Below, piece by piece: positions 1 to 35,179 of a DNA stretch of 64,000 nucleotides (its first letter is position 1; every line of letters begins with the position of its first letter). The translations under genes were made by a program, and so were the position numbers. The DNA comes from Opitutia bacterium (GTDB lineage Bacteria; Verrucomicrobiota; Verrucomicrobiia; Opitutales; JABJCN01). The stretch is taken from contig JABJCN010000092.1 in NCBI GenBank assembly GCA_018668635.1, positions 9,032 through 73,031 on the forward strand. The letters run 5' to 3'. A model generated the notes under the pieces. That model made no database searches, had not been told where the DNA came from, and saw nothing but the letters and a program-made list of their open reading frames with translations.

Positions 1-3000
1 CCATTCAAGCTGGAAAGCGATATCATTAGTTTTGTTGCTCCAACCCGGGCAATTCTAGCCTCTGCACCCACGTTCCCTCCATTGCTTCCCGGTCAACGTA
101 TCTGGATTACAGGATCCACCAGTAATAATGGCATTTATACCGTCTCCCGCGATGTAGTGGCAACCGACCAGCAGATTATCATTGAAGAAGCCCTTTTGGA
201 TGAAACTGCCGGGAATCTTGTTACCATTGCCAGCGCTGGAGCCCAGCTTCCTGAAATGGATACGGATGCTGATGGATTAACTGATTTTTATGAGGAACAG
301 CTTGGGCTTGACCCTGGTCAGGATACTGATGGAGATGGTGTGCTCGATGACAGTGATGGTGACGGCAATCCCGATGGTTGGGACTCCGATGGTGACGGTC
401 TTCCTGATGGATGGGAGGTTCTCACCGGCCTTACCGTATTTGCCAATGATATCCATATGGCCAATAACAAGGTGTATTCAAGTTCCGCCATTGAACTCAC
501 TGGGTTGACTGATGTCTCATTTGACTCAGCGACCAGAAGTATTCGTAGTTCTCAAGGCTCACTTAGTGATACCAATCAACCGGCTTTCATCGCTGGCCAG
601 AAGGTTATCGTATCCGGTTCAGGTCTCAATAGCGGAACCTACACAATTGTTGCAGCAAACTCTATTCAGATAACGGTTGCCGAGGAGGTTCAAGATGAAA
701 AAGCCGGACGCGCGCTCTCTATTTCAAGCATTGGTGGCTCAAATCTATCTGTCTTTTCTGCAGGCACCACCTTGGAGGTCAAAGGCTTCACAAATATTGG
801 TAATTTCGGTATCGAGTCTTCAAGCGAAAACACCATTCAAGTCGTTGGAAATTTAGCCGATGAACCTACGGGTACTTTTGATCCCAATGATGAGTCCGCT
901 TATCGAGGCTGGATTACACTTTTTGCAAATGATACCGAGGGTGACTCTGATGGAGACCTTCTTTCCAATAAGGAGGAGTTTCTCGGTGCTGACGACAAGT
1001 CTTCTGGTTACAACGATTATCTGATCCCGGATCGCCTGTTCGATGGCGACTGGACACACCCCGTATTTAATGATACTGATGGAGACACCATTGATGATGG
1101 CTGGGAGATTCGATATGGTCTCGATCCAAACCAAAGCAATGGTCTTCTTGGAAGTGACATTGGTTTTCGCGACAATCGCGTCCGCTCCATTTCCAGCTTG
1201 GTCGTCAGTGGCCAGAATATTCGTTTTGATGGAGCTAGCAGTCGCATCCTATCATTGACTAATGAATTTATACTTCTTCGTCAGTGCCGTCAGGTTACAA
1301 TCATTGGCTCCGATAGCAACGACGGCTCATTTCCCATTATTGATATTGGAGTGGCTGGAGATTACATGGAAGTTGCGCCCGCTGCAAGCGGAGCGGTTAT
1401 TGTGGATGAAAAAGAGGGCCGACCTATCATGGTACATGGAGACCTTGAGATCCTGAGTAATGATATAAGCTTTAATGGGAATACCATAAGCTCTTCTCCA
1501 ACTACCGTTACAGGTAATGACATCTTTTTCACTGCAGCAGGTGAAATCCGTAACCTCGGGGGACAGTCTATTATGGGGGATGACATATCTTTCTCCGGGA
1601 CCACAATTCGTAGTCATAATGGGCACTTTTCTAGTGGAACGGATGACATATCCTTTGATGCGGCAACATCTGAAATTCGATCGCAGGTGGGCATCCTTAA
1701 TGGATATGCTGTGGGTTATCCCATCCTGGTGGCTGGTTCTGCGAATAACAATGGTTTGTTCATCGTGCAGTCTGTGCCTGTTCCGGGGTTCACCGTGGTT
1801 GTTAATGGCCCCCTCCAGGATGAAGGAGCCCAAAATGGCGGAAATAATCCTCAGCCCAAGGTCATTACCATTACCGCCATCGGGGGCACAGACCTTTCGA
1901 GTTTTATCTCCGGCTATCAAGTACAGGTTTTCGGATCTCTCTTTAATGATGGCATATATACCGTGACTGGAACACCCACTTTCCCCACGAATACGTTGGA
2001 CGTTGGCCAGCTACTTTTCACTGAGAGCAATGGAGCGTTTGTTGACATTTCTTATGCCGATACTTCCAGCTTTTCGAACTTCCGTGCCGGTCAGTCGATT
2101 ACTGTTACTGGTTCCGTTACCAATAATGGCACCTATACGATAGGCAACGCCTTACCCTCGGCGAACCTGATACAACTTGCTGCCACTGGCCCTGCCATTG
2201 TTGCCGAACCAGCCAATCCATTTACTGCAGTCACCCTGACTGCGCAAGGCGTCACAGACTTTTCCCGCTTTTCCCGGGGGGCACAAATTCAAGTTAATGG
2301 CACTTCCTTAAACGATGGCATTTACAATATTTCAAACGATATCGCACCGACTGCCAGCCAGATCCAAGTTGTTGAGCCTCTAACGCTTGAGGCTTCCGGT
2401 CCTGATCTTGAAATCTTTCAGCTTGGGCCTTCTTCCCGTCTGGATGCCTTTAATGATAATGAAAATGTTCTTATCAATGGCTCCTTAGGCAATGATGGCA
2501 CATTTATCATTGATACTAATGGTGTGAGCCCATCCACACTATTTGCTTTACCACCAAAATTATTTGCCTCGGAAGCAGCAGGTTCTCAAATTACAATATC
2601 CAAGGATCTCGATAGTGATGGTCTCCCTGACGTTGTTGAGTATCATTATAATTCCAACCCCAATCTTCGGGATACCGATGCTGATGGTGACACGGACATG
2701 GATGAAACTGGTGGATTCTTTGGTGGCAGTGATCCAACCGACCCTGATTCCGTCCTGCGATCCATTAATGGCTTGGTCAGATATAGTGGCATCGAGACGG
2801 GCAACATCTACATCCAGGTCGATGAGGCGAACCGCCCTTTTGAAGAAAACGACACCGGTGATACCATTCCCTCGGATCTTTATTTCACCAACAAAGACCG
2901 CACAATTCATTCTTCTACCGGAAAATTACCTTACCTTACCGTTGGACGACAAATCCTGATTTCTGGTACAAATGATGGGGATGGTGATGGGGTGGGGGAC

Positions 3001-6000
3001 AACGATGGTGTCTTTACGATTTCCAAGATTATTGCCTCAAAATATGCCATTGAGGTTGACGAGGAGCTTGTTGATGAGGGGACAATTGATGAAGATGGAG
3101 ACGGGGTTCCCGATGGGGTCTCTGTCTCAGCCACCGTACTTGGATATGACCCCATCCTTGTACCGCTTTCGCTGGGAGAGAGGGCCTACTCCATCAACGG
3201 GCTTGCCTCCGATCACTTGATCACGATTACCGCTTTCCTGGATGCAAATGGTAATGGTGGTCTTGATGAGTTTGCCGATCCCAATGGCCAATACAATAGC
3301 GGCAATCCCGTTGAGGTCGGTAAATCCGGTCGCTTTAATCTAAACCTTGACTTGGAACAGACGAGTTTGGCCATCGACAGTGTCACCACGGAGGAGATTG
3401 ATGGGGGGTATTACCACACCGTAATCTGGAATAGTGTCCCGGCGAAGCAATATCGTGTCCTTTATTCAACCTCCACCCCTGCCGGGCCATATGGCACCTA
3501 TGTCCCGGCTGCGAATGGCCTCCCGGTTGTCATCACAGGTCGTGATGCCCCCGTGGTGAACCCCGGGGACGATCCGCCAAAGACATCCCTTGTGCATTTC
3601 ACGGTGGAATCCCCTGTCTGGTATCGTGTGGAAATGGTTAATGCCTTTGGGGAGGGTGTTCCTGAGACTGATACAGATGGCGACGGCCTCACAGACTATC
3701 ACGAGGGGCAACTGAAACTCGACCCCGAAAACCCTGACGTTGATGAGGATGGCATGCCGGATGGCTGGGAGGTCTTGACCGGGCTCACAGCTTACGGCAA
3801 CGACCTGACCTTGGATGGAGACACCGGCAAGATTCTTTCCATTGCAGGTCTCATCACGGAATCAACCACTATTGGTTTCGATTTGGCCTCCAGGAAAATT
3901 AGTTTCAACAATGGCATGCCGGCTTTTATCGTTGGCCAGCAAATCACTGTAACAGGCTCCAAGGTTAATGATGGTACTTACACAATTTCAGAAGTCGCTA
4001 CAGATTCCACCTTCATTGTCGTGAAGGAAAGTCTAAACACGGAAACTGCTGGTGCTACAGTCACTGTTGCAAGCTTTGGAGGGACTGACCTCTCTGTATT
4101 TCAGGATGGAGCCATTTTGGTGATCAAGGGAACCACTGCGCAATTGTACGACGGAGTTTATAAGGTGATTGGTGCATCAATGACCCATGAGGCACAATTA
4201 TCAACAGTCGCCGGAGGCTTACCTTCCTTCCAGAACGGAAATGGTCATCCTGCTGAGCCCGGTATCTGGCTGACCCTTTACGCAACAGATTCCGATGCCA
4301 ATCCGGATGGTGATGGATGGGAAGATGTGGACGCATCAGGGAATCCAATTTGGCATCAGTATACAAATATTGAAGAATACCTTGGCGCGGACCAGACTCT
4401 CTCTATTTTCCGTAAGGAGCTTCTCCCAACCCGTATTTTCGACGGTGACTGGACGCACCCCAATAGTGTCGACACAGATATGGATGACATTGATGATGGG
4501 TGGGAGCGTCGATACGGATTGGACCCCAGTTCCCTCAACGGGACATTCGGTTCAGACCTCTCCTTTAAAGGCTCGCAGGTACGTTCAGTTGAAAGCATCT
4601 CTATTTCGGGTGAGAACATCAGTTTTGACGCGGCCACGCGCCGCATAAATTCTCTTTCATCATCCTTTCTTGCCTTCTCCAACTCGCAGTGGATCACGAT
4701 TACGGGCTCCGGGTTCAATGATGGGGTTTATGAGATTGAGTCAGTGTCCCAGTTTGGTGAGTTCATCACAGTTACTCCAGCCCATACACTTATAGAAGAA
4801 GTAAAGGGGGCAGATATATACATTCGCGCTGATCGGGAAAAAACAGGAACTGATATCAGCTTTAATGGTAATACAATTCGTGCTTCACGGACAACCGCCA
4901 GCGGTAGCGACATCCATTTTGATGATACCGGCTTTATCCGAAGTTTGGCTAACCAGAATGTTCAAGGCACTGACTTGGTCTTCGCACTAAACGAAGTCAA
5001 ATCTCACTTTGGACTAACGACTGGGTTCATTGTGAATGATATCAGTTTTGATGCAGCTTCACAGCAGATCAGTTCTCTAGCTGGTATTTTTCCGGATTTC
5101 GTTGTTGGGCAGCAGATTTTTGTCAATGGCTCCAATAGCAATGATGGTTTTTATACCCTTGCAGGTATTCCTGTTCAGGGCTCGATCTTACAGGTCAACG
5201 AGGCGCTAATTGACGAGGCTCGTCAAAATGTTGCCGGAGGGGGAGGGCCTGCTCCGCCTAAGATTATAGCAGTTGCCAGTGTAGGCGGCACGGATCTTTC
5301 TGGATTTCCCGGCGGGTTCCAAGTTCAGATTATGGGTTCTACTTTCAATGATGGTAATTTTACCCTGATTGCCCCTTCTTCCCAAAACCTATTACAGTTC
5401 GCTACTGCCATGCTCAATGAGCCTGCAGGAGCCAATACTGGGATTTCAGTATTAAACAGCACCAACCTGTCCGGGTTTGAGCTTGGTCAGCAGATTATTA
5501 TTACCGGCTCGACCCTGAATGATGGCACCTATCAAGTTTCCAATGCTGTGGCGCCAACTGCAGGTGCCATAGCGATTCAATTTGATCCACTGAACCCCTT
5601 GCAACTGCAAAATGAACCACCGTTGGTTACCCGTGCGCCCACAGTTGCCGCTGCAACTAATACCAATCTCTCCATGTTCACAAGGGGTGGCACGCTTGTG
5701 GTATCAGGTACGGCTTTCAATGATGGCACCTATCACATAAATCCCTTTATTGACCCAACTGCTGACACCATACAGGTCCAGGAAACCTTCATCAATGAGC
5801 CAATGGGCCCATCCACAACCATTTTGCAGACTGGTGCCACTGACCTATCCGGGTTTTTAGATAATACCACCATACTTGTTTCAGGTTCTTTTCTCAATAA
5901 TGGAGTCTACACAATTGCCAAGGATGGGGTTTCGCAGCATGCACTCACCTTTGCACCTTCCGGAATCTTTGCGGGATTTCTCCGTGAACCGGCTGCAGCA

Positions 6001-12000: not shown

Positions 12001-15000
12001 ACTGAGCCCGGCACCGGCACTGATCTCTCCCTGCTTGTGCCAGGTTTGCAGATTCAGGTCAGCGGGTCACAGTTCAATGACGGTGTCTACACAATTTCCG
12101 ACATTGAGTACGGTCGGGACCGCTGGGTGGCGGAAGACCCATTTGGCCAGCAACGTGCACCGGAAGGCACCCTTGATTATTCATTGGATAATAATAATAC
12201 GACCACAGTCCTGACTGTCGATACCCCAACATTATTTAACGATGAGGCAACTGGCCGAGAGATTACCATTACTGTACTCAATGGTACAGACCTTGCTGAG
12301 TTTCGGACCAAGCAGGAATTCGAGGTTTCTGAATCCTATTCCAATAACGGCGTCTACACGGTCTCGGATGCAGTCATCCCCACGTCCAATCAAATGGTTG
12401 TTCATGATCACATCTTTAAGGAGGAACCACGCTTGCTGGCCACGGATCTCCTCGTTGACGATATTTCATTTCAGCCTGTCGGAGAAGTTGCAGGGAATCC
12501 CTTGGTCCCCCAAGATGGCACTCTTATTGCCAGGCACCCTGTTTTTGATGTTGTCACCAGTCCTATTCGCTTCAGTCAGTCAGACTTGGAGGCAGGTGGG
12601 CGTGGTCGTCGCCTTAATGTAATCGAATGGTCGACAAACCTCCTTGCAATCAGTGATCCTGACCCAGCTACTGACTTCGACGATATTTACTTTCAGAATG
12701 GTGATGTTATCAGTGGTACCTTTGAAGTTTTTCCAGCCGATCCAATCTTGATGATTCCGGCTGTAACAGAACCCCGGATTTATGTGGTAGTTGGTGTTGC
12801 GCCTATAACCGACCCACTTAATTCTCCAGACTTCACAACTTTTGTTAATAATACCAATGCTATCTTGCCGGGTGCCCTTGTGCAAATTCTCAACTCTACA
12901 GGTCCGGTTACCACCGTGTTTGAGCCGAATGCTGGGCGGTACGAATTGGGCGAAGTCGTGTATGATGATACTGACGGTAATTACTACATGGCTTTTGCTG
13001 GACCAACCACTGCTGCCGCTGGCTGTACTGAAATATCTACCGAATGGATACCTCTTGGCCCAACACCACCTCACATGGGTGTTGCAGATGAATTTTCATC
13101 ACTTGTAAGCTATGATCCTGGTGCCCTTGTTCAGTTTGAGAATCACATTTATGTCGCGTTGGAGGAGTTAAGCCTCAACCAGGGCACGCCGACCGAGAAT
13201 ACAACCTCGTGGATCGAGCCCAGCTTATACATGACCAGCAGCCTGATCCTTTCCCACACAGGCGCCATTCCAAAGTTGGTTGCAGGAACCAAGATCAACG
13301 TATATGTTCAAGGGGATGGCGCCAATGTTGACCACGGTGGCTCGTGGGTGGATTGGCCACTATGGGCGCTTGGCGACCCAGACCCCAATGCTAAAAGTTT
13401 CACGGTCAAGAATTTTATCAGTCCATTCATGATTGAGGTGGAGGAATCGGTAATCGAGCACGATAGATTCCATGACGATGTATTTACGTGGTTCTTTGAT
13501 CCTTTAAGTGGCGATCTAATACCGTTTTTAGCGGATCCGCAACCGCCCCGTAATATCAGGCTCTTTGTAAACTCTTATTCCACCGGGCAAAACCCGCAAG
13601 CCAAGCTTGACCTGGTTCGCATTGATCTCTCGGCCTTCCAGCCTGGTCAAAAGCTCACCATCATTGATTCCTCCAAAAACAATGGTGTGTACACAATCTC
13701 TGATGAGGCAGTTGCAGTTGCAGATCGTGTTTATCTACAGGAACCGCTTTACATTGAGAACGATGGGTCAAATGCCACCATATTCCAGTCCGGCGCGACA
13801 GATCTCTCCGGGTTCTCCTTTGGAAGTAAGTTTATCTTGGGAGGTAGTGATCAAAATGATGGCAAATTTACGGTTAACTCCATCAAACCCAACAGTTCTA
13901 TTGTTGATGTATCACGTGTTTTTACCCAGGAAGAAGTGGATGCTGGGATCACCACTGCGTTGGCAACCGAGGCCACAGGGAGAAACATCACCATGGGCAT
14001 TGATACAGATGATGACAGTTTGTCCAACAACCAGGAATATACTGGTGCAGATGGTATTTCCCCCAACAATCCTGGAGATAGTTCAGATGCAACCGCTCCC
14101 ACTTTGTCTGATTTCGATAGGGATGGATACGCTGACGATGTTGAGCGGGGTGGCTATTTTGGCGGCAGTAAAGCTTGGGACATTAATTCGATTCCATCCT
14201 CAATTTCGGGAAAAATCAATTATACAGGCACGCTTGATGGCGAGGTAATTCTAAGGATACTGGAGGGCAATGATCCCAATCCTGCTGCACCGAATGATAT
14301 CAGTTTTACTTCAGAGGGAAGCATCATTCGCTCCTCAAGTGGTAGCCTCCCATTGCTTTTACCTGGTGAAAAACTACATATACAAGGTACCATACTAACC
14401 TACATTCCATTTAATTCAAATGGCATTAATACCTCCTACACCGTTAAGGAGGTTGTCACGCAAGGCAGTGAGATTACCGTTGAGGAAGCATTGATTGACA
14501 CCCCTCTTCCAACAGAAGGACTTGTTTTCCTTCAGCTTTGGGGTACGCCTGAGTTGTTAGAGCTTAACCTGGGTGCATCCGGCCCCTATACGGTGTCTGG
14601 TCTTCCATCACACAAGAGTTACATTGTTGATGCATTTCTGGATGTTGGAATAAAGGTTGCCAGCAGCAATCTCACATTCGACCCAGACACGGGGACAATT
14701 ACAGCTAACACCGACCTTTTCACGGAATTTGCTATCGGCCAGACCATCCGGGTTACTGGAAGTGAGGCGTTACCGATCAATGATGGTTCTTATACTCTTA
14801 CCGCGGTCACTGGAACCACTCTGACTGTTGCAGAAACAATTACAACAAGGGAGGAGCCCGGATCTTATATTATCATCCAGGGACTGGGTAACGGGGTTTA
14901 CGATGATCAGGCGGAACCTTATGGCAGCTATATTTTCCCTGCATCAGGTGGTGCCATCCAGTTGGTTTCCGGCATTATACCGATAAGCCACCTCAATAAT

Positions 15001-16968
15001 ATCAATATCGAGCTGACTCTTCCGGAACCCAGTATTTTCGATATTATACCGGATGTGGCCAATGGCAAAAATACTGTCAAGTGGAACAGCATTGCCGGTA
15101 AGACTTATCGCATCCTCTATTCTAATATTAATGCTGTTGGTCCTTACAATTATGTTAAGACTCTGGCTGCTCAAATTGATATAGACAGTCAGCGCGCCAC
15201 CCTTGATGGCCAACCTTTTGAGTGGGATCTTAATAATAACGGCATTATTGATCCTGGTGAGGATATCAACGAGAACGGCGTTCTTGATACCCCGGGTCCT
15301 GGTGATACGATTGATCTTGCTGTAACGACCGTTGAGGGTCAGAGCATCGCTTTGGTGGAGCATTTTATTGAAGGGGATGTCTGGTATCGTGTCGAGATGG
15401 AGAATGGCACCTATGATATACCCGAACAGGATACAGATGCTGACGGGCTCTCCGATTTCTACGAGAATCTGGACACTGCCAAGGGGGGCTTTGGCACGGT
15501 GTTTGATGTCTATGACAGTGACGGTGATGGCATGAGCGATGGTTGGGAAATCTTTGTTGCCCTTGATCCTCTTGATGAATCAGATGCTTCGGTTGACGCG
15601 GATGGTGACGGTCTCAGTCACCTTGAGGAATATATGGGAGGCGACAAGGTGCCTGCTGCCTACGATTACACTCGAATCCTAACGGACGTTTTCTCGGGTG
15701 ACTGGACTTACAGTTGGAACAACAACTTCTGGGCGCCTGCGAACAATCCCGAAGTCAATCATCGTACCCTTCTACCTGCTGATACACCCGATACTGACTT
15801 TGACGGGTTTCCCGATGGTGCTGCTGACCCACGGGATTCTGATAGCGATCCCAATAATCCAGGAATGCGTGACGGGTGGGAGGTCATGTACAGCCTTAAT
15901 CCCAATTTCAACGATCGTGAAAGTGATCCCGATAACGATGGTTGGGACCATGATGGCAATGGACTGGTTGAGAGCACTGAACTCTATTCTAACATTGAGG
16001 AATACTTGGGTAAGGATGGAGGTGCGCCGGTGTTGGACACTGCCAACGGTCTACTTCTTTCCAATGGTGCTGTTTTCACCGGGGACCATACAAATCCACA
16101 GGATCCTGATAGCGATTTGGACAGTTACCTTGACGGACGCGAAGCCGATATCATGGAGGGTGTCCTCTTTGGGGGGAGTGATCCCAATGACCCAACATCC
16201 ACCCTCATGCATTTTACCGGCAGTCTCACAAGCCCCAACGGCCCGGACAACCTTCGTCTCGCTATCTCAGATGATACGACGATCCCGGCTGGTGATGTCA
16301 TTTCCGGTGTCGGTGCAATCTACAAGATCGCAGATGTACCCACCGGCAATTACGTGGTATATGCATTTGAAGACAAAAATGCCAACGGAAGCTGGGATAA
16401 CGACACCACGGAGCCAGCCCGGTCCCTCGGTGGTCACGGTAACCCGACCAAGGCCAGTACAGTTTCATTCGCAGCCGGTAGCCCCGTGGTAATTCTTGAT
16501 TTTGAGCTGGATGCAGCATTTGTGGACGACTCTGTTGCCCCAACCTTTGCCGAATGGGCGGTCACCGAAGGCCTTACAGGGAAGGGGAGTGCGGCCGAAC
16601 TTGATGCAGATGGCGATGGTATCCCCAACTTTGTGGAGTTTGCTGCCAACACAGGGCCCCTTGACCCCGATAGCAAACCGGAGGCAACCTTCCACTTCGA
16701 GAACACCCTCGGCGGATTGCTTGAGGCAGAGGAACCCGGCTTTCGCATGATGACCGTTTCCCACCCGTGGAACGGCGTCCTTGCCGGTCAGGTAGCCTAT
16801 GAAATCCAGGTCTCCGAGGACCTCAACCTGGGCTGGAGAACCCTGACACCTGGCGATGGTTTACTCCAGAGTCTTTCCCTCCACGGTGACCGTATCGAGG
16901 CCAAAATCCGCTGTGCCGATGTCAATAGAACCACCTTCACCCGTTTTGTATTTAAGGAGGCCAAATAA
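1..16968 (+). CDS. Giant Ca-binding (thrombospondin type-3-like) repeat protein, probably cell-surface or extracellular; 5' end lies outside the window (at least 5655 aa visible)
   Basis: Frame 1 has no stop from nt 1 to the TAA at 16966-16968. Nt 1-81 translate to PFKLESDIISFVAPTRAILASAPTFPP, which continues the internal repeat pattern, so the ORF-track TTG at 82 is not the true start. The protein has many DxDxDGxxDxxE motifs (DTDGDGLTDYHE, DSDGDGLPDGWE). I count about 36-38 copies by eye of a GQxIxIxGSxxNDGxYTV module. There are four Fn3-like YR[VI]LYS..PAGPY...WYRxE modules. Confidence 0.9.
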   Translation, partial: PFKLESDIISFVAPTRAILASAPTFPPLLPGQRIWITGSTSNNGIYTVSRDVVATDQQIIIEEALLDETAGNLVTIASAGAQLPEMDTDADGLTDFYEEQLGLDPGQDTDGDGVLDDSDGDGNPDGWDSDGDGLPDGWEVLTGLTVFANDIHMANNKVYSSSAIELTGLTDVSFDSATRSIRSSQGSLSDTNQPAFIAGQKVIVSGSGLNSGTYTIVAANSIQITVAEEVQDEKAGRALSISSIGGSNLSVFSAGTTLEVKGFTNIGNFGIESSSENTIQVVGNLADEPTGTFDPNDESAYRGWITLFANDTEGDSDGDLLSNKEEFLGADDKSSGYNDYLIPDRLFDGDWTHPVFNDTDGDTIDDGWEIRYGLDPNQSNGLLGSDIGFRDNRVRSISSLVVSGQNIRFDGASSRILSLTNEFILLRQCRQVTIIGSDSNDGSFPIIDIGVAGDYMEVAPAASGAVIVDEKEGRPIMVHGDLEILSNDISFNGNTISSSPTTVTGNDIFFTAAGEIRNLGGQSIMGDDISFSGTTIRSHNGHFSSGTDDISFDAATSEIRSQVGILNGYAVGYPILVAGSANNNGLFIVQSVPVPGFTVVVNGPLQDEGAQNGGNNPQPKVITITAIGGTDLSSFISGYQVQVFGSLFNDGIYTVTGTPTFPTNTLDVGQLLFTESNGAFVDISYADTSSFSNFRAGQSITVTGSVTNNGTYTIGNALPSANLIQLAATGPAIVAEPANPFTAVTLTAQGVTDFSRFSRGAQIQVNGTSLNDGIYNISNDIAPTASQIQVVEPLTLEASGPDLEIFQLGPSSRLDAFNDNENVLINGSLGNDGTFIIDTNGVSPSTLFALPPKLFASEAAGSQITISKDLDSDGLPDVVEYHYNSNPNLRDTDADGDTDMDETGGFFGGSDPTDPDSVLRSINGLVRYSGIETGNIYIQVDEANRPFEENDTGDTIPSDLYFTNKDRTIHSSTGKLPYLTVGRQILISGTNDGDGDGVGDNDGVFTISKIIASKYAIEVDEELVDEGTIDEDGDGVPDGVSVSATVLGYDPILVPLSLGERAYSINGLASDHLITITAFLDANGNGGLDEFADPNGQYNSGNPVEVGKSGRFNLNLDLEQTSLAIDSVTTEEIDGGYYHTVIWNSVPAKQYRVLYSTSTPAGPYGTYVPAANGLPVVITGRDAPVVNPGDDPPKTSLVHFTVESPVWYRVEMVNAFGEGVPETDTDGDGLTDYHEGQLKLDPENPDVDEDGMPDGWEVLTGLTAYGNDLTLDGDTGKILSIAGLITESTTIGFDLASRKISFNNGMPAFIVGQQITVTGSKVNDGTYTISEVATDSTFIVVKESLNTETAGATVTVASFGGTDLSVFQDGAILVIKGTTAQLYDGVYKVIGASMTHEAQLSTVAGGLPSFQNGNGHPAEPGIWLTLYATDSDANPDGDGWEDVDASGNPIWHQYTNIEEYLGADQTLSIFRKELLPTRIFDGDWTHPNSVDTDMDDIDDGWERRYGLDPSSLNGTFGSDLSFKGSQVRSVESISISGENISFDAATRRINSLSSSFLAFSNSQWITITGSGFNDGVYEIESVSQFGEFITVTPAHTLIEEVKGADIYIRADREKTGTDISFNGNTIRASRTTASGSDIHFDDTGFIRSLANQNVQGTDLVFALNEVKSHFGLTTGFIVNDISFDAASQQISSLAGIFPDFVVGQQIFVNGSNSNDGFYTLAGIPVQGSILQVNEALIDEARQNVAGGGGPAPPKIIAVASVGGTDLSGFPGGFQVQIMGSTFNDGNFTLIAPSSQNLLQFATAMLNEPAGANTGISVLNSTNLSGFELGQQIIITGSTLNDGTYQVSNAVAPTAGAIAIQFDPLNPLQLQNEPPLVTRAPTVAAATNTNLSMFTRGGTLVVSGTAFNDGTYHINPFIDPTADTIQVQETFINEPMGPSTTILQTGATDLSGFLDNTTILVSGSFLNNGVYTIAKDGVSQHALTFAPSGIFAGFLREPAAADISISRDSDNDGLPDVLEFNYKTNPSEPDSDGDGGTDIAEVSGHFGGSDPTDSTSVLSSIVGTIIYETNENGIFYVSLTPVAEGINDLMFNSADRTISSASGRLPSLMAGDILEVTGTASNNGPFTVLEVVAPHTTLKVIESILDESPADTTVMGPPLLVSLPPNQRSFAITNLPSDVHVLLEAFLDSNGNAERDDFIDPSVTYNGGKPLLVGPGGRYNIVLDLSLTPLRIHPDEVDVKGVVTKEDEITGGYHHTITWKSVPGKIYQVRYSTATPAGPFSHYVTARTGLAEQVIGKAGGETTSLIHFSTHRDVFYRIEQLNADGTLTQEADSDGDGLTDYYEEALLLDPFTQDVDLDGMPDGWEVLTKITTHARDIRFNGSTITSVYSLTSANKSDISFAGNIISATSTEFPEFLAGHQLLITGSGKNDGTYILESVSDDRKTLTLSGTLEQEVAGATVTISSVGGTNLSIYPAGIILNVKGSTNTLNDGIFEVKVSSANQLNMVNATNGTDHVFILEDQDPEAPHYITLFASDADIDADIDGLSNLEEYLGADIEGSTFDPGLLAARVFDGDYTNATELDTDADTMDDGWERKYGLNPNALNGVSGTDLGFRGLQIKSISSIPVSGRDFTFNSATNRITALSTSLSSLQHARQLTILGSGTNDGTYTVLSVDTAGAFIDIHPSTPIAINQKEGNYVTILGDREILGNDISLDSFSIRSTPTQVTGKDIHFDSAGFIRSLLGVFVEGQDIGFVGNQISSHFGLTTGAVDDDISFDSATSEIRSAGGNLPNFVNGFQIQVAGSNFNNGTFTVVSTITSGFTIQVAEALFDEPATNNLLPGAAKTVTIDSIGGTDFSSIPSGFEIFISGSGVNDGVQTAAISTSNILTVLSGFISEAAGANVRIEISQPTDFSNFRIGQEIAISDSRRNDGDYIIGSVSPNMLKIQFNPTIPSPLFNDPANVLTEASVTAVVFSDLSTFQKGEFLQLNGSTDNSGVLRVSPFFNPTPDELQVLDLLVSEPIGSDLEFFQLGHTDLSGFNDGDIVLVAGSIANNGIYTLAQNGVTGHGLTFKMAPPFAGFVTESAGSLVSISKDLDNDGLSDVLEYVFKSNPTIADTDNDGDSDLAETNARFYGSDPQNNAVLLTSLNGTIEHALPYEGADRGTVYVVVQEQTSVHQVGDLQFSAQDNSITSTESKLPFLVAGRKITIAGSSATAIGTDIEFIGNTIKSSNTLIPSSLLPGRQVLISGSGDNDGIYTVGAGGVSLDGKTLTLTESLTNEDKGSEVSVATIYTVASVITPGTKIIVSDNLADELPSDCSFNILPAAPEIVTLPVGVLSYSVDGLPSGSTVSIHAYLDADKDGEYDAFVDPYGEYSAPITLGKSPRYNLNITLRQSDLTLANVSPLTSATNGFANAITWNSIPGKIYRILYSDHSPAGPYDKYVESLTGFPQEIIGRFPDPISGISQTYIVHISEHKDTWYRLEMISEDRRTVTSEVDSDSDGLTDYHENNMGLDPQVFDSDGDSLPDGWETYTGLTTHGSDISFTAPGTIRSIAGLQVTGTDLKFIANTGVIQATANSVDFSDFIAGQKISITGSLRNDGTYSILEEPTTSTITVQEQIYDEDGPLSGVLVASVGGTNLSVFPAGAVLTIINSARNDGTYKVSSENTVSSHTLVLESDTLVAETHDESSGSITIYASDKDADPDGDGLTNLQEFLGPDGEVPSYDYALVTTTLFSGDWSHPVKFDTDGDGIDDGWEVDYGLNPNKIDQLSGKDISLRGDRVFSMANIEVSGVDISLDHDMNRLLSTFPHFKDFSKGQLIRIEGTNSNDGSYHIKSARPNEIYLEEPLTDTEPAGSKIVTIIADISITSSNLAIDENSIYSATTSAEGGDITFSRDRVQSLHDYAVTGTDLIFRDKQITSTSGLKYLVHEAAPRLFALRGAEMTTEDGLTLNFVENQRLIMRNLTVPFVDYFSVRRVQFGGEKITFNTAPPFNQSPQNIEWTEIFTEPGTGTDLSLLVPGLQIQVSGSQFNDGVYTISDIEYGRDRWVAEDPFGQQRAPEGTLDYSLDNNNTTTVLTVDTPTLFNDEATGREITITVLNGTDLAEFRTKQEFEVSESYSNNGVYTVSDAVIPTSNQMVVHDHIFKEEPRLLATDLLVDDISFQPVGEVAGNPLVPQDGTLIARHPVFDVVTSPIRFSQSDLEAGGRGRRLNVIEWSTNLLAISDPDPATDFDDIYFQNGDVISGTFEVFPADPILMIPAVTEPRIYVVVGVAPITDPLNSPDFTTFVNNTNAILPGALVQILNSTGPVTTVFEPNAGRYELGEVVYDDTDGNYYMAFAGPTTAAAGCTEISTEWIPLGPTPPHMGVADEFSSLVSYDPGALVQFENHIYVALEELSLNQGTPTENTTSWIEPSLYMTSSLILSHTGAIPKLVAGTKINVYVQGDGANVDHGGSWVDWPLWALGDPDPNAKSFTVKNFISPFMIEVEESVIEHDRFHDDVFTWFFDPLSGDLIPFLADPQPPRNIRLFVNSYSTGQNPQAKLDLVRIDLSAFQPGQKLTIIDSSKNNGVYTISDEAVAVADRVYLQEPLYIENDGSNATIFQSGATDLSGFSFGSKFILGGSDQNDGKFTVNSIKPNSSIVDVSRVFTQEEVDAGITTALATEATGRNITMGIDTDDDSLSNNQEYTGADGISPNNPGDSSDATAPTLSDFDRDGYADDVERGGYFGGSKAWDINSIPSSISGKINYTGTLDGEVILRILEGNDPNPAAPNDISFTSEGSIIRSSSGSLPLLLPGEKLHIQGTILTYIPFNSNGINTSYTVKEVVTQGSEITVEEALIDTPLPTEGLVFLQLWGTPELLELNLGASGPYTVSGLPSHKSYIVDAFLDVGIKVASSNLTFDPDTGTITANTDLFTEFAIGQTIRVTGSEALPINDGSYTLTAVTGTTLTVAETITTREEPGSYIIIQGLGNGVYDDQAEPYGSYIFPASGGAIQLVSGIIPISHLNNINIELTLPEPSIFDIIPDVANGKNTVKWNSIAGKTYRILYSNINAVGPYNYVKTLAAQIDIDSQRATLDGQPFEWDLNNNGIIDPGEDINENGVLDTPGPGDTIDLAVTTVEGQSIALVEHFIEGDVWYRVEMENGTYDIPEQDTDADGLSDFYENLDTAKGGFGTVFDVYDSDGDGMSDGWEIFVALDPLDESDASVDADGDGLSHLEEYMGGDKVPAAYDYTRILTDVFSGDWTYSWNNNFWAPANNPEVNHRTLLPADTPDTDFDGFPDGAADPRDSDSDPNNPGMRDGWEVMYSLNPNFNDRESDPDNDGWDHDGNGLVESTELYSNIEEYLGKDGGAPVLDTANGLLLSNGAVFTGDHTNPQDPDSDLDSYLDGREADIMEGVLFGGSDPNDPTSTLMHFTGSLTSPNGPDNLRLAISDDTTIPAGDVISGVGAIYKIADVPTGNYVVYAFEDKNANGSWDNDTTEPARSLGGHGNPTKASTVSFAAGSPVVILDFELDAAFVDDSVAPTFAEWAVTEGLTGKGSAAELDADGDGIPNFVEFAANTGPLDPDSKPEATFHFENTLGGLLEAEEPGFRMMTVSHPWNGVLAGQVAYEIQVSEDLNLGWRTLTPGDGLLQSLSLHGDRIEAKIRCADVNRTTFTRFVFKEAK
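253..3663 (+). repeat. Super-repeat 1 of the giant protein (about 1137 aa)
   Basis: The unit starts at EMDTDADGLTDFYEEQLGLDP and ends after the Fn3-like module YRVLYSTSTPAGPYGTYV...WYRVEMVN. The same domain order recurs in the next three units. Confidence 0.75.
3664..6984 (+). repeat. Super-repeat 2 (about 1107 aa)
   Basis: The unit starts at ETDTDGDGLTDYHEGQLKLDP and ends after YQVRYSTATPAGPFSHYV...FYRIEQLN. It is collinear with unit 1 at protein level but heavily diverged at DNA level. Confidence 0.75.
6985..10470 (+). repeat. Super-repeat 3 (about 1162 aa)
   Basis: The unit starts at EADSDGDGLTDYYEEALLLDP and ends after YRILYSDHSPAGPYDKYV...WYRLEMIS. Confidence 0.75.
10471..15423 (+). 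repeat. Super-repeat 4, expanded to about 1651 aa by a non-repetitive insert
   Basis: The unit starts at EVDSDSDGLTDYHENNMGLDP and ends after YRILYSNINAVGPYNYV...WYRVEMENG. It carries a unique region of about 390 aa (roughly nt 12430-13600) that units 1-3 lack. Confidence 0.7.
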
Positions 16969-34402: not shown

Positions 34403-35179
34403 ATGGCCACATATAATTACCTCATTGACCCTATTGGGGCGAACCAGAGCCAGCAAAGTTTTTTCCTACAACAGCTTTCATCTGGTAATCGGGTTTTCAG
34501 CTCTTGGATAGATCCTGGAGGATTGGCAGTTTCAACCAAGTTGGATGCCGCCATCAGTCGTTCTTCCGTAGTTGTCAACAACCTTGCCACGACCAATTCA
34601 TTTCTCCAGACTCAGGATGGTATCTTGCAGTCGGCGAGTGAGATCATTGACCGGATTGGTCAGCTTAAGACCATGTCCGAAGGTGTCTTTGGCGATGTGA
34701 CCGGGGCCTTCCAGACTGAGTTTACCGAGCTGAGCAAACAATTAAGCAATTTAAACACTGAATCTTTTAACGGCGTGCAGATGTTTAGTGACCCAACCGG
34801 CAGTCTGGCTGTCATGGGGAATGAAAGTGGCACTGTCAGCTTTGAGATTTCACAAGCCAACATTGTGTCCTCCGTTTCTGACATTACTTCTCAGGCAAAT
34901 CTGGCTGATGTTACAATGACGAATATTACAGACTCCCTCCAAAATGTAGCCAACCTTCGGGCCACGAACGGTGCCCAGCAGTCAAGGGTTGAAGCTTCCT
35001 TTGACTTGATGAAAGTGAATCATTCCAACTATGCATTGGAATATAGTGCGGTCATGGATTTGGACTGGGCAAAAGCAACGACTGATTTTACCATTGCCAA
35101 TCTTGCTACTGAAACCGGGGCTTCATTATTTTCCAATGCCCTTACTTCTGGGACCACGGTTAATACTCTTTTAAGTTAA
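34403..35179 (+). CDS. Short flagellin/FlgL-family protein (D0/D1-only, divergent)
   Basis: The N-terminal LSSGNRVFSSWIDPGGLAVSTKLDAAI...QTQDGILQSASEIIDRIGQL aligns by eye to flagellin LSSGLRINSAKDDAAGQAIANRF...QTTEGALNEINNNLQRVREL. FNGVQMFSD matches FNGVKVL. The C-terminal LRATNGAQQSRVEASFDLM...SAVMDLDWAKATTDF matches RSDLGAVQNRF...SRIEDSDYATEVSNM. Confidence 0.75.
   Translation: MATYNYLIDPIGANQSQQSFFLQQLSSGNRVFSSWIDPGGLAVSTKLDAAISRSSVVVNNLATTNSFLQTQDGILQSASEIIDRIGQLKTMSEGVFGDVTGAFQTEFTELSKQLSNLNTESFNGVQMFSDPTGSLAVMGNESGTVSFEISQANIVSSVSDITSQANLADVTMTNITDSLQNVANLRATNGAQQSRVEASFDLMKVNHSNYALEYSAVMDLDWAKATTDFTIANLATETGASLFSNALTSGTTVNTLLS

What the first reader, a model, noticed from the sequence alone, without database searches (positions are those of the whole stretch)
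253..15423. Four collinear super-repeats of about 1100-1650 aa, diverged at the DNA level
Unit boundaries are marked by E-x-D-[TS]-D-x-D-G-L-[TS]-D-[FY]-[YH]-E at nt 253, 3664, 6985 and 10471, and again at 15424. This gives unit lengths of 3411, 3321, 3486 and 4953 nt. Each unit follows the same domain order. It opens with a TSP3-like block and GWEVLTGL, followed by modules and a second TSP3 block containing DDGWExxYGLDP. Then come a 4x mini-repeat, about 6 more modules and a third TSP3 block containing GGSDPTD. The unit closes with a region LDxNGN..D.F.DP and an Fn3-like YRxLYS..PAGPY..WYRxE. The DNA of equivalent segments differs at many synonymous sites. For example, tgggaggttctcaccggccttacc at 411 corresponds to tgggaggtcttgaccgggctcaca at 3766. 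The duplication is therefore ancient and maintained, not a recent amplification or an assembly artefact.
Basis: seen in the sequence. Interest (0 to 1): 0.6.

Follow-up and report, generated by a model that had tools for sequence, protein, structure and literature searches.

The report
Ancient super-repeats in a giant protease
The four long repeats are real, very old internal duplications that form most of a single protein of about 8,300 residues from a marine Opitutae bacterium; the protein carries two protease domains, lies next to a pilus-type secretin gene, and keeps the same repeat units, one for one, in related bacteria.

Summary
The boundary motif sits exactly at nt 253, 3664, 6985, 10471 and 15424. 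The four units align end to end at 35-44% amino-acid identity. Their DNA is about 50% identical and synonymous sites are saturated.

- Ocean metagenome fragments and three orthologous loci match individual units at 55-73%, against 35-47% between units.
- One ortholog carries the same series of units in the same order, with similar lengths.
- pN/pS between near-identical strains is 0.16-0.19.

The picture is larger than the window. The ORF runs off the left edge. A metagenome contig (99.8% identical over 4.5 kb) adds 2,651 residues, giving 8,306 aa. These residues hold an N-terminal hydrophobic segment, two intact subtilisin (S8) domains and a P-domain, a shorter fifth unit (U0) and a module-free "skeleton" unit. 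A second skeleton unit lies at the C-terminus, inside the window.

Each full unit holds three calcium-binding TSP3 blocks, nine copies of a ~60-aa beta module, a beta-sandwich and an Fn3-like domain. The module has no Pfam model that its copies here reach, yet it matches 2,815 protein clusters elsewhere.

A type-IV-pilus-like secretin gene lies directly upstream, and this arrangement is conserved in the one relative whose upstream flank was available. The proposed function, an extracellular calcium-stiffened stalk of a giant protease, is inferred.

The parts
1..16968 (+). 3' two-thirds (5,655 codons plus stop) of one giant ORF. The gene starts 7,953 nt upstream of the window. The reconstructed product is 8,306 aa.
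   Evidence: No stop in frame 1 from nt 1. L084 is 99.82% identical to window 1-4505 and extends the ORF upstream to a Met at L084 nt 2275.
1..252 (+). End of the preceding shorter unit U0: one extra ~58-aa module (about nt 64-234) lying between U0's Fn3-like end and the U1 boundary.
   Evidence: Module hit at aa 22-78, 61 bits. In L084 the U0 tail '...FYRVEVKSAD' lies directly upstream of window nt 1.
253..3663 (+). Super-repeat unit U1 (1137 aa). Modules start at unit residues 107, 161, 334, 477, 544, 603, 666, 727 and 888.
3664..6984 (+). Super-repeat unit U2 (1107 aa). Modules start at unit residues 82, 139, 330, 472, 540, 598, 665, 724 and 878.
   Evidence: The orthologous fragments P0091, P0078, P0050 and P0130 group with U2.
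6985..10470 (+). Super-repeat unit U3 (1162 aa). Modules start at unit residues 78, 136, 314, 455, 522, 577, 644, 701 and 900.
   Evidence: P0087 and P0031 group with U3.
10471..15423 (+). Super-repeat unit U4 (1651 aa). It has the same skeleton but is the most diverged unit. Modules start at unit residues 82, 140, 311, 515, 604, 1051, 1107, 1289 and 1413.
   Evidence: P0148 groups with U4 at 100% bootstrap.
12448..13620 (+). U4-specific insert of about 390 aa with no module and no family assignment. It is conserved in relatives.
   Evidence: Gap in the U4 alignments. No module between unit residues 660 and 1050. Fragment P0121 matches U4 855-1189 at 41%. U4 in ortholog L086 is 5043 nt. The only Pfam match is a sub-threshold Flagellin_D3 hit.
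1462..1683 (+). 4x mini-repeat (period about 20 aa, 'tGxDIsFxgxxIrS') of U1. The equivalents are at about nt 4852-5076 (U2), 8125-8349 (U3) and a weaker array of about 3 copies near nt 11590-11750 (U4).
6136..6984 (+). Closing region of U2: GGSDPTD, then a beta-sandwich with one module inserted in a loop, then an Fn3-like domain ending in WYRxE. The equivalents are at nt 2722-3663 (U1), 9388-10470 (U3) and 14161-15423 (U4).
   Evidence: Alignment A3. AF2 model with mean pLDDT 74, all-beta. The best fold matches are tandem FnIII pairs at E about 2e-3. DUF2141 is sub-threshold.
15424..16968 (+). C-terminal 'skeleton' unit. It has the boundary motif, the TSP3 blocks, GGSDPND and an uninterrupted beta-sandwich, but no modules. 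A domain of about 100 aa and the stop codon follow.
   Evidence: Motifs in collinear order. Collinear blastp to the unit skeleton. No module hits. 36% identical over 243 aa to the upstream skeleton unit mini1.

Best explanation
The four units are ancient tandem duplications of a composite block of about 1,100 aa inside a single giant gene.

**Composition of one unit**
- three calcium-binding TSP3-type blocks;
- nine small beta modules of about 60 aa;
- a beta-sandwich with one module inserted in it;
- an Fn3-like end domain.

**The series.** The same skeleton occurs seven times along the protein. It carries 0 modules in two 'skeleton' units, 4 in U0, and 9 in each of U1-U4. The repeat therefore probably grew in two ways: by inserting modules into a TSP3/sandwich/Fn3 scaffold, and by duplicating the loaded scaffold. 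These events happened long before the present species diverged. Each unit has since been kept as a distinct, position-specific entity under purifying selection, much like the super-repeats of titin.

**Proposed function (inferred).** The complete product is 8,306 aa. It has an N-terminal hydrophobic export or anchor segment and two catalytically intact subtilisin-like domains, one with a proprotein-convertase P-domain. The C-terminal ~6,300 residues are very acidic, cysteine-poor and entirely repetitive. I propose that the protein is exported by Sec and then passes, or docks to, the type-IV-pilus-like secretin encoded directly upstream. Calcium bound by the TSP3 blocks would stiffen the chain of beta modules into a long extracellular stalk or fibre. 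That stalk would either hold the proteases away from the cell or tether them to particles or prey surfaces.

**Shown versus inferred.** Shown: repeat anatomy, age, conservation, domain content and gene neighbourhood. Inferred: localisation, calcium stiffening, export route and what the proteases cut.
For: **Repeat and age**
- Exact boundaries, full-length collinear alignments and collinear landmarks.
- Synonymous sites are saturated while amino-acid identity is 35-44%.
- Modules at the same ordinal position in different units are more alike than other pairs (33% against 27%, Mann-Whitney p=2.5e-9). For 19 of 36 modules the best match is at the same position, against about 3 expected by chance.

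**Maintenance**
- Environmental fragments match one unit at 52-73% and the others at 28-49%. NJ bootstrap for the pairs with a unit is 94-100%.
- L086 is collinear over residues 1177-8277 at about 59% identity, and its units have similar lengths. L085 and L087 are also collinear as far as they reach.
- pN/pS is 0.16 (12 synonymous, 6 non-synonymous, 1 stop) and 0.19 (5 synonymous, 3 non-synonymous) between strains.

**Whole-gene context**
- L084 extends the ORF.
- Peptidase_S8 scores 316 bits in two stretches, P_proprotein 46 bits, TSP3_bac 61 bits. The D/H/S motifs are present in both S8 domains.
- There is a single hydrophobic segment at residues 9-32. Net charge is -738 and there are 12 Cys in 8,306 aa. 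Each full unit has 4-5 DxDxDGxxDxxE motifs.

**Neighbourhood**
- The upstream gene matches the Amuc_1098-family secretin (2e-73), GspD and PilQ.
- In the more distant ortholog L087, PilM, then the secretin, then the giant gene follow each other on the same strand.
- In Omnitrophota, another PVC phylum, giant genes are generally preceded by loci resembling type II secretion or type IV pilus systems, including gspD, and some of those giants are rich in TSP3 repeats (bioRxiv 10.1101/2023.11.21.568195).

**Module**
- The profile of 35 copies finds 2,815 cluster representatives (477 at E<=1e-10). These include giant proteins and flagellins with the module between their N- and C-terminal helical domains, which implies a surface-exposed bead.
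- The AF2 model has pLDDT 84.6.
Against: - No direct evidence bears on localisation, calcium binding, secretion route or protease substrates.
- The N-terminal segment could be a cleaved signal peptide or a membrane anchor; I could not tell which.
- The secretin match is far below the NCBIfam cut-off (248 against 750 bits), probably because only the C-terminal half matches. Adjacency does not prove that the giant protein uses the secretin.
- In the window's units TSP3_bac stays just under Pfam's threshold (19-22 against 25 bits).
- The fold assignments are statistically weak. The module resembles SH3/KOW-like barrels only at E>=2 in PDB and 0.06 in BFVD. The closing region resembles FnIII at E about 2e-3 with low TM.
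- One near-identical MAG has a nonsense SNP inside U3, so the full-length protein may be dispensable in some cells. It could also be a sequencing error.
- The three orthologous loci are riddled with frame changes. I attribute these to long-read errors but cannot prove it.
Confidence: 0.6

Rival explanations
1. The repeats come from recent amplification, or from a mis-assembly that collapsed or duplicated reads from a repetitive region.
For: Giant repetitive genes are often mis-assembled. The window and both near-identical contigs end inside the gene.
Against: The units are only 46-51% identical in DNA and their synonymous sites are saturated, so an assembler cannot confuse them. Three independent assemblies agree base for base without gaps. 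Orthologs in other organisms keep the same order of units.
Confidence: 0.01
2. The units resemble each other because the same kinds of domains were shuffled together several times independently, or because gene conversion keeps them alike. On this view there was no single ancient duplication followed by independent divergence.
For: The module is a mobile, widespread domain found in very different proteins. TSP3 blocks are common in PVC proteins.
Against: The alignments run through linkers and all landmarks over more than 1,100 columns in one HSP. Modules show positional homology. Each unit is closer to its ortholog (55-73%) than to its neighbours (35-47%), which excludes ongoing homogenisation.
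Confidence: 0.03
3. The protein is mainly a passive adhesin or matrix fibre. The repeat region is the functional part, binding surfaces, glycans or other cells. The N-terminal subtilases serve only to process or release the protein itself.
For: Giant repetitive calcium-binding proteins of bacteria are usually adhesins, for example SiiE and the Marinomonas 1.5-MDa adhesin (PMC6272769 and PMC8092209, listed). The second S8 domain lies internally, after a skeleton unit, so cleavage there could free the C-terminal 6,300 residues. The module occurs in the exposed variable region of giant flagellins. Unit-by-unit conservation suggests that each unit has its own role.
Against: No recognisable lectin, PA14, vWA or other ligand-binding domain was found. 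There are no RTX repeats, no adjacent type I secretion genes and no LPXTG motif. Two intact catalytic triads plus a P-domain are a large investment for self-processing alone.
Confidence: 0.25
4. The gene is a decaying relic: a pseudogene or a pseudogene in the making. The repeat region is not under functional constraint.
For: There is a nonsense SNP (TTA to TAA at window nt 7964) in the near-identical MAG contig L001. The orthologous loci in three long-read assemblies are broken into dozens of short ORFs.
Against: The frame is open over 24.9 kb in the window plus L084. pN/pS is 0.16-0.19. Amino-acid identity is 55-73% to orthologs even though synonymous sites are saturated between paralogs. 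The frame changes occur in 'pilon'-polished long-read contigs and fall at different places in each locus, as expected for indel errors.
Confidence: 0.05

Closest known systems
Titin A-band super-repeats (7- and 11-domain patterns of Ig and FnIII domains); from my own knowledge of the titin literature.
   Same: Both have a higher-order repeat made of several small beta domains in a fixed order. In both, domains at equivalent positions in different super-repeats are more alike than neighbouring domains. That pattern was tested here and found. The number and order of units are conserved between species.
   Different: Titin is a eukaryotic intracellular muscle protein built only of Ig and FnIII domains, and it acts as a ruler for the thick filament. 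This protein is bacterial, probably extracellular, built of TSP3 blocks and an unnamed ~60-aa module, and joined to proteases. This is an analogy, not homology.
TSP3- and dockerin-rich giant proteins of Omnitrophota, and the secretion loci that precede giant genes there (West-Roberts et al., bioRxiv 10.1101/2023.11.21.568195).
   Same: Both belong to the PVC superphylum. Both are giant, repetitive, calcium-binding, TSP3-rich and predicted to be extracellular. In both cases the gene is preceded by a locus resembling type II secretion or type IV pilus systems that includes a secretin.
   Different: This protein has no dockerin or discoidin domains. It is 8.3 thousand aa long rather than more than 30 thousand. 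It carries two S8 proteases. That paper does not describe a conserved super-repeat of about 1,100 aa.
RTX-type giant adhesins exported by type I secretion (SiiE, LapA, Marinomonas MpIBP; PMC6272769, PMC5466336, PMC8092209).
   Same: Both are giant acidic surface proteins whose long extender is a chain of small beta domains stiffened by calcium.
   Different: The extender in those proteins is a single ~100-aa BIg domain repeated many times. Here the repeat is a composite 1,100-aa unit whose copies are saturated at synonymous sites. There are no RTX nonapeptides, no HemolysinCabind hit and no adjacent type I secretion genes. An N-terminal Sec-type hydrophobic segment is present.
Cell-envelope subtilases with long C-terminal spacers (lactocepin PrtP, streptococcal C5a peptidase, dentilisin PrtP, autotransporter EprS).
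   Same: Both have an S8 catalytic domain at the N-terminal end followed by beta-rich spacer domains that display the enzyme outside the cell. There are weak NCBIfam similarities to denti_PrtP and EprS.
   Different: All these NCBIfam matches are far below their cut-offs. There is no LPXTG motif, and no autotransporter barrel or other C-terminal anchor family was hit. There are two S8 domains, and the spacer is about ten times longer and organised in super-repeats.
Akkermansia Amuc_1098-1102 type-IV-pilus-like gene cluster (NCBIfam NF042912, NF042425).
   Same: The upstream secretin's best family match is Amuc_1098 (2e-73). PilM lies further upstream in the ortholog L087. The giant protein's C-terminal region has a weak match to the Amuc_1099 family.
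   Different: Both matches are below the curated cut-offs (248 against 750 bits and 22.6 against 50 bits). The Amuc_1099 match covers only about 45 residues around a TSP3-like motif. As far as I know, no giant protein is part of the Akkermansia cluster.

Membership tests
Bacterial TSP3 repeat (Pfam PF18884) | The protein reaches Pfam's gathering score (25 bits). | tested here: met
   The upstream part of the same protein (L084, residues 1-2651) scores 61.3 bits with three stretches. Single units in the window reach only 18-22 bits.
Bacterial TSP3 repeat (Pfam PF18884) | Aspartate-rich calcium-binding motif DxDxDGxxDxxE, repeated. | tested here: met
   There are 4-5 canonical motifs per full unit at collinear positions: 5 in U0, 4 in mini1 and 3 in the C-terminal unit.
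Bacterial TSP3 repeat (Pfam PF18884) | Actual calcium binding. | not testable with these tools
   This needs biochemistry.
Subtilase, Peptidase_S8 (PF00082), for the whole protein (outside the window) | Pfam gathering score reached and an Asp/His/Ser catalytic triad present. | tested here: met
   The score is 316 bits in two stretches. The motifs VSIVDDG / HGTSVAG / GTSASAP and VAVIDTG / HGTHCAG / GTSMACP are present. A P_proprotein domain (46 bits) follows the first S8 domain.
Fibronectin type III domain (closing segment of each unit) | Match to an fn3 sequence model, or a significant fold match to FnIII. | tested here: inconclusive
   No Pfam fn3 hit in the units. The AF2 model of the closing region is all-beta, with pLDDT 74. 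The top Foldseek hits are tandem FnIII pairs, but E is about 2e-3 and TM about 0.2 because the model has several domains.
DUF2141 (PF09912) beta-sandwich | Pfam gathering score (24.4 bits). | tested here: not met
   The C-terminal unit scores 18.9-20.1 bits. The sandwiches inside U1-U4 give no hit, perhaps because a module is inserted in them.
SH3-like / KOW-like small beta-barrel, or phage head-tail attachment family PF05354 (for the ~60-aa module) | Significant sequence or fold match of the modules in this protein. | tested here: inconclusive
   - The modules here give only sub-threshold NifZ and DUF5666 hits.
- Relatives of the module in other proteins hit PF05354 significantly (P0045: 77 bits, 1.4e-21). 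They also give sub-threshold SH3_2, FeoA, CusF and PUA hits.
- A PDB profile search found nothing at E<0.3.
- Foldseek against PDB has its best match at E=2.3, with KOW-type, PsaE, NdhS and V-ATPase barrels among the top hits.
- In BFVD the best matches are uncharacterised tailed-phage proteins, with TM 0.6-0.74 and E of 0.06 or more.
RTX adhesin exported by type I secretion | C-terminal GGxGxD nonapeptide repeats and adjacent type I secretion genes. | tested here: not met
   No GGxGxDxUx motif anywhere in the 8,306 aa. No HemolysinCabind hit. The adjacent genes are a secretin upstream and a Big_7 protein downstream.
Sortase, PEP-CTERM or T9SS anchored surface protein | A C-terminal sorting signal. 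| tested here: not met
   No LPXTG motif. No C-terminal hydrophobic segment. No sorting-domain family hit for the C-terminus in Pfam or NCBIfam.
Titin-type super-repeat (an architectural class, not a homologous family) | Domains at equivalent positions of successive super-repeats are more similar to each other than to their neighbours, and the pattern is conserved between species. | tested here: met
   Same-position identity is 33% against 27% for other pairs (p=2.5e-9). For 19 of 36 modules the best match is at the same position. The same unit series is present in ortholog L086.
Amuc_1098-family type IV pilus secretin (the gene upstream, outside the window) | NCBIfam NF042912 cut-off (750 bits). 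| tested here: not met
   The score is 247.8 bits (E=2e-73) and covers profile positions 381-804 only. The Secretin Pfam domain is met at 122.8 bits.

The most novel reading that the evidence does not exclude
The super-repeat may be a bacterial counterpart of titin's ruler. On this reading each ~1,100-aa unit, with its nine beads and three calcium hinges, is a position-specific docking platform. That is why every unit is conserved individually across species. The whole 8,306-aa protein would be threaded through, or assembled on, the adjacent type-IV-pilus-like secretin machine as a giant protease-tipped fibre of defined length. If so, this would be a new class of secretin-associated surface appendage in marine Verrucomicrobiota, built from a domain family that has no Pfam model of its own.
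Probability: 0.12. Interest if true: 0.75.

Novelty: new variant of a known kind. Interest (0 to 1): 0.5.

Why it matters
- **A different kind of repeat.** Extender repeats of giant bacterial surface proteins are usually short single domains, and many are young and nearly identical. That limits what they say about function and makes them hard to assemble. Here the repeat is a composite 1,100-aa block that is old, diverged and conserved unit by unit between species. This implies that each unit is individually needed. It also gives a natural series (0, 4 and 9 modules on the same scaffold) showing how such a giant protein was built.
- **Annotation value.** The public MAG annotates this gene only as partial hypothetical proteins, and long-read assemblies split it into dozens of small ORFs.
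- **An unnamed module family.** The ~60-aa module has no Pfam model that its copies here reach, yet it matches 2,815 protein clusters, including giant flagellins and phage-like proteins.
- **A testable link.** The conserved position behind a pilus-type secretin echoes what was reported for giant genes of Omnitrophota. It offers a way to test how PVC bacteria export or display proteins of this size.

Tried and rejected
1. **Scan of genome contigs with the four-unit alignment.** The tool chose the TSP3 peptides D[GS][ML]PDGWE and D[TDG][IM]DDGWE as patterns. It returned 80 loci from many phyla that share only TSP3 stretches, with no ortholog among them.
2. **First word-based homolog search with whole U2.** This was likewise swamped by TSP3 proteins. 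Only the identical MAG protein was informative. A query alignment without TSP3 blocks (A4) was needed to reach the orthologs.
4. **Profile of the module against PDB sequences.** Nothing below E=0.3. A weak ComEA/SLBB-like match was not pursued.
5. **Possible chitin-binding motifs in the U4 insert.** By eye, two stretches of the insert ('YELGEVVYDDTDGNYYMA...W' and 'YDPGALVQFENHIYVA...W') looked like chitin-binding CBM5/12 motifs. A Pfam scan of the insert at E<=10 gave no such hit, so I dropped the idea.
6. **Unit number upstream.** I first concluded from the window alone that nothing unit-like preceded U1, because a module abuts the U1 boundary. L084 showed this was wrong. A shorter unit U0 ends just upstream, and the module is an extra one appended to it.
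7. **ORF2 (17010-24230) as a possible further repeat-bearing gene.** It has no modules and no similarity to the giant protein.
8. **Literature search for bacterial 'super-repeat' proteins.** None of the ten listed papers used the term.
Full report
**The observation**

Frame 1 of the window is open from nt 1 to the stop at 16968. The units are therefore 1137, 1107, 1162 and 1651 aa long.

Pairwise blastp gives one end-to-end alignment for each pair among U1, U2 and U3 (38-40% identity over about 1,190 columns, about 700 bits, E=0). U4 aligns in two collinear blocks, 33% over its first 640 residues and 25-29% over its tail, separated by about 400 extra residues.

The exceptions are the DxFxDP motif, found in U1-U3 only, and the mini-repeat, which has about three copies in U4.

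A profile built from the recurring ~58-aa module ('tDLSxFxxGQxIxVxGSxxNDGxYTI...IxVxExLxxExaG..vTI') finds nine copies per unit at collinear positions.

**DNA divergence**

At the DNA level the units are 46-51% identical. Third codon positions are 31-35% identical, and the proportion of synonymous differences is 0.73-0.80, which is saturated. Conserved residues share the same codon in only 36-42% of cases. blastn sees just a handful of short collinear matches. The quoted DNA example is correct except that it starts at nt 412 rather than 411.

**Is the duplication ancient and maintained?**

Saturated synonymous sites already exclude recent amplification. Three independent assemblies of the same species agree without gaps. 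These are the window, the 'Opitutae bacterium' MAG contig JABJEU010000119.1 (L001, 99.875% over 15,149 nt) and the JGI metagenome contig Ga0209660_1000707 (L084, 99.82% over 4,505 nt).

The stronger test is comparison with relatives. An exhaustive profile search with the module and a word-based search with a TSP3-free alignment recovered fragments from Tara Oceans and other assemblies. Each fragment matches one particular unit much better than the others:

| Fragment | Best unit | Identity to best unit | Identity to other units |
|---|---|---|---|
| P0091 | U2 | 60% | 38-40% |
| P0107 | U1 | 66% | 28-47% |
| P0087 | U3 | 58% | 31-47% |
| P0148 | U4 | 55% | 36-37% |

P0121 matches the U4-specific insert at 41%. 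Neighbour-joining trees place these fragments with 'their' unit at 94-100% bootstrap.

Three long contigs from lagoon and reef long-read assemblies hold the orthologous gene:
- L086 is collinear with residues 1177-8277 of the reconstructed protein at a mean identity of 59%. It carries five of the six boundary motifs; the U1/U2 one was not matched, probably because of a frame change there, and its position was inferred from the WYRVE that ends U1. Unit lengths are 2248, about 3288, about 3294, 3269 and 5043 nt for U0-U4.
- L085 is collinear from residue 1107 to 6256, where its contig ends.
- L087 is collinear from residue 31 to 4592, where the locus ends.

The units were therefore already distinct in the common ancestor. 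Their number and order are conserved, and they do not homogenise one another.

Between near-identical strains, pN/pS is 0.16 (12 synonymous, 6 non-synonymous, 1 nonsense) and 0.19 (5 synonymous, 3 non-synonymous). The counts are small but consistent with purifying selection.

**What the window does not show**

L084 extends the reading frame 7,953 nt upstream to a Met preceded by an in-frame stop. Joined to the window, it gives a protein of 8,306 aa. From the N-terminus the upstream 2,651 residues contain:
- one hydrophobic segment at residues 9-32, the only one in the protein apart from one marginal 19-residue window at residue 1009;
- a subtilisin-like S8 domain followed by a proprotein-convertase P-domain;
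- an unassigned region;
- a 'skeleton' unit (mini1, residues 1191-1500) with TSP3 blocks and an Fn3-like end but no modules;
- a second S8 domain;
- a sixth copy of the boundary motif at residue 1982, which opens a shorter unit U0 (754 aa, four modules). The second half of U0 is collinear with U2 residues 600-1102 (30% identity, E=2e-51).

Both S8 domains keep their Asp, His and Ser motifs.

The stretch after nt 15424 in the window is a second skeleton unit. It has the boundary motif, the TSP3 blocks, GGSDPND and an uninterrupted beta-sandwich. It is 36% identical over 243 aa to mini1.

The same scaffold thus occurs seven times, with 0, 4, 9, 9, 9, 9 and 0 modules. In the full units one module sits inside a loop of the sandwich, and that loop is uninterrupted in the C-terminal skeleton unit. 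This series suggests that the super-repeat arose by loading modules onto a TSP3/sandwich/Fn3 scaffold and then duplicating the loaded scaffold. That is an inference.

**The building blocks**

TSP3 is secure for the protein as a whole (61 bits). It is motif-secure in the units, which have 4-5 DxDxDGxxDxxE motifs each, although single units fall just under Pfam's threshold.

The ~60-aa module has no Pfam or NCBIfam model that its copies here reach, and no solved relative by sequence. Its profile nevertheless matches 2,815 cluster representatives, 477 of them at E<=1e-10. These include many giant proteins of up to 7,868 aa, proteins with flagellin N- and C-terminal domains that carry the module in between, and phage-tail-like proteins. 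In some of those relatives the repeat is hit significantly by PF05354, the phage head-tail attachment family, and weakly by SH3-like families.

AlphaFold gives a confident small beta domain for the module (pLDDT 84.6). Fold searches are thematically consistent but not significant. They return KOW/SH3-type barrels in PDB at E>=2, and uncharacterised tailed-phage proteins in BFVD at TM 0.6-0.74 with E>=0.06.

The closing region folds as an all-beta, multi-domain piece (pLDDT 74). Its best matches are tandem FnIII domains at E about 2e-3. 'Fn3-like' is therefore reasonable but not proven.

Modules at the same ordinal position in different units are more alike than other pairs (33% against 27%, p=2.5e-9). 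For 19 of 36 modules the best match is at the same position. This is the signature of a true super-repeat, as known from titin (my own knowledge).

**Context and likely mechanism**

The protein is extremely acidic (net charge -738) and nearly free of cysteine, with 12 Cys. It has no RTX repeats, no LPXTG and no recognised C-terminal sorting domain.

The gene directly upstream on the same strand encodes a secretin. Its best family match is the Amuc_1098 type-IV-pilus secretin (2e-73, below the cut-off because only the C-terminal half matches). GspD and PilQ are the next best matches. In the more distant ortholog L087 the same order is seen: PilM, several small ORFs, the secretin (68-84% identical over most of its length), then the giant gene.

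West-Roberts et al. (bioRxiv 10.1101/2023.11.21.568195) report that giant genes of Omnitrophota are generally preceded by loci resembling type II secretion or type IV pilus systems, including gspD. They also report that one class of those giants is rich in TSP3 repeats and propose adhesion.

The most likely reading is that the product is exported and displayed outside the cell, possibly by way of this secretin. The repeat region would be a calcium-stiffened stalk or fibre that positions or tethers the two proteases. The main rival is that the repeat region is itself the functional adhesin and the proteases only process it. None of this is shown directly. The rest of the window is ordinary chromosome (proS, an ECF sigma factor, HtrA, fumC, a TonB-dependent receptor, flagellin, ligA and others).

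**Comparison and novelty**

The closest known things are:
- titin's super-repeats, which share the architecture only;
- the TSP3-rich giant proteins of Omnitrophota with their upstream secretion loci;
- RTX giant adhesins, which share the principle of a calcium-stiffened extender but fail the membership test here;
- cell-envelope subtilases, which share the protease-plus-spacer design, though all family matches are far below their cut-offs.

I rate the finding as a new variant of a known kind. Giant calcium-binding surface proteins are known. What appears undescribed is this combination: an ancient composite super-repeat of about 1,100 aa conserved unit by unit, a widespread module without a curated family, two subtilase domains, and a conserved position behind a pilus-type secretin. 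Interest is moderate (0.5). The repeat itself is descriptive, but the gene as a whole is a good candidate for study.

**Caveats**
- The full-length protein is a join of two near-identical sequences from different samples.
- The orthologous loci contain many frame changes, which I take to be long-read errors.
- One MAG has a nonsense SNP in U3.
- The fold-level assignments are weak, and the function is inferred.

Noticed in passing
window 7964 (codon 2655 of the window frame, inside U3): The near-identical MAG contig L001 (GCA_018663085.1) has TAA where the window has TTA. In that assembly the giant gene is split into a 1,715-aa partial protein and a 2,998-aa protein. This could be a real null allele or a consensus error.
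   Followed up: partly
window 2830-2853: Five of the 19 differences between the window and L001 fall within 24 nt (N>D, E>K, N>D and two synonymous changes), only 14-37 nt from the end of the L001 contig. This is probably an assembly-edge artefact or a small recombination tract.
   Followed up: no
L084 6-1499 (upstream of the window), and L087 1-7201: A secretin gene of the Amuc_1098, PilQ and GspD type lies directly upstream of the giant gene on the same strand. In the more distant relative L087 a PilM/FtsA-like gene and several small ORFs precede the secretin. The arrangement resembles the pilus-like cluster of Akkermansia.
   Followed up: partly
window 16171-16965 (C-terminal 265 aa of the giant protein): There is a weak match (22.6 bits, cut-off 50) to the Amuc_1099 family of pilus-like system proteins, over about 45 residues around 'DADGDGIPNFVEFAANTGPLDP'. 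This is intriguing given the Amuc_1098-type secretin upstream, but it may reflect only the TSP3-like motif.
   Followed up: no
window 17010-24230 (+): The next gene starts 42 nt after the giant gene's stop, on the same strand. It encodes a 2,406-aa protein with a clear N-terminal signal peptide, four Big_7 domains and weak beta-propeller hits. It is unrelated in sequence to the giant protein and is possibly co-transcribed with it.
   Followed up: partly
P0028, P0032, P0037 (proteins): The ~60-aa module occurs in 5-7 copies in proteins of 960-990 aa that carry a flagellin N- or C-terminal helical domain, that is, in giant flagellins. It also occurs in phage-tail-like proteins (P0026, P0035). 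In some of these it is hit significantly by Pfam PF05354 (phage head-tail attachment).
   Followed up: partly
L085, L086, L087: In three 'pilon'-polished long-read assemblies the orthologous giant gene is called as 20-40 short ORFs, because the frame changes every few hundred to two thousand bases. Gene catalogues built from such assemblies will miss this protein entirely.
   Followed up: partly
window 12448-13620 (U4 insert): This is a stretch of about 390 aa without modules and unique to U4. It is conserved in relatives (41% to P0121; U4 in L086 is equally long). It has no family assignment and contains two W/Y-rich stretches that look like carbohydrate-binding motifs by eye, but Pfam gives them no support.
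   Followed up: partly
window 34403-35179 and 35865-36758: A short flagellin gene (258 aa, with Flagellin_N and Flagellin_C) and a leucine-rich-repeat protein lie about 17 kb downstream. A T2SSE-type ATPase gene is at 40442-41596.
   Followed up: no
window 1327-1920 (-), 12580-13074 (-), 13607-14248 (+), 15698-16492 (+): ORFs of 164-264 aa overlap the giant gene in other frames or on the other strand. They are almost certainly spurious products of the long open region.
   Followed up: no
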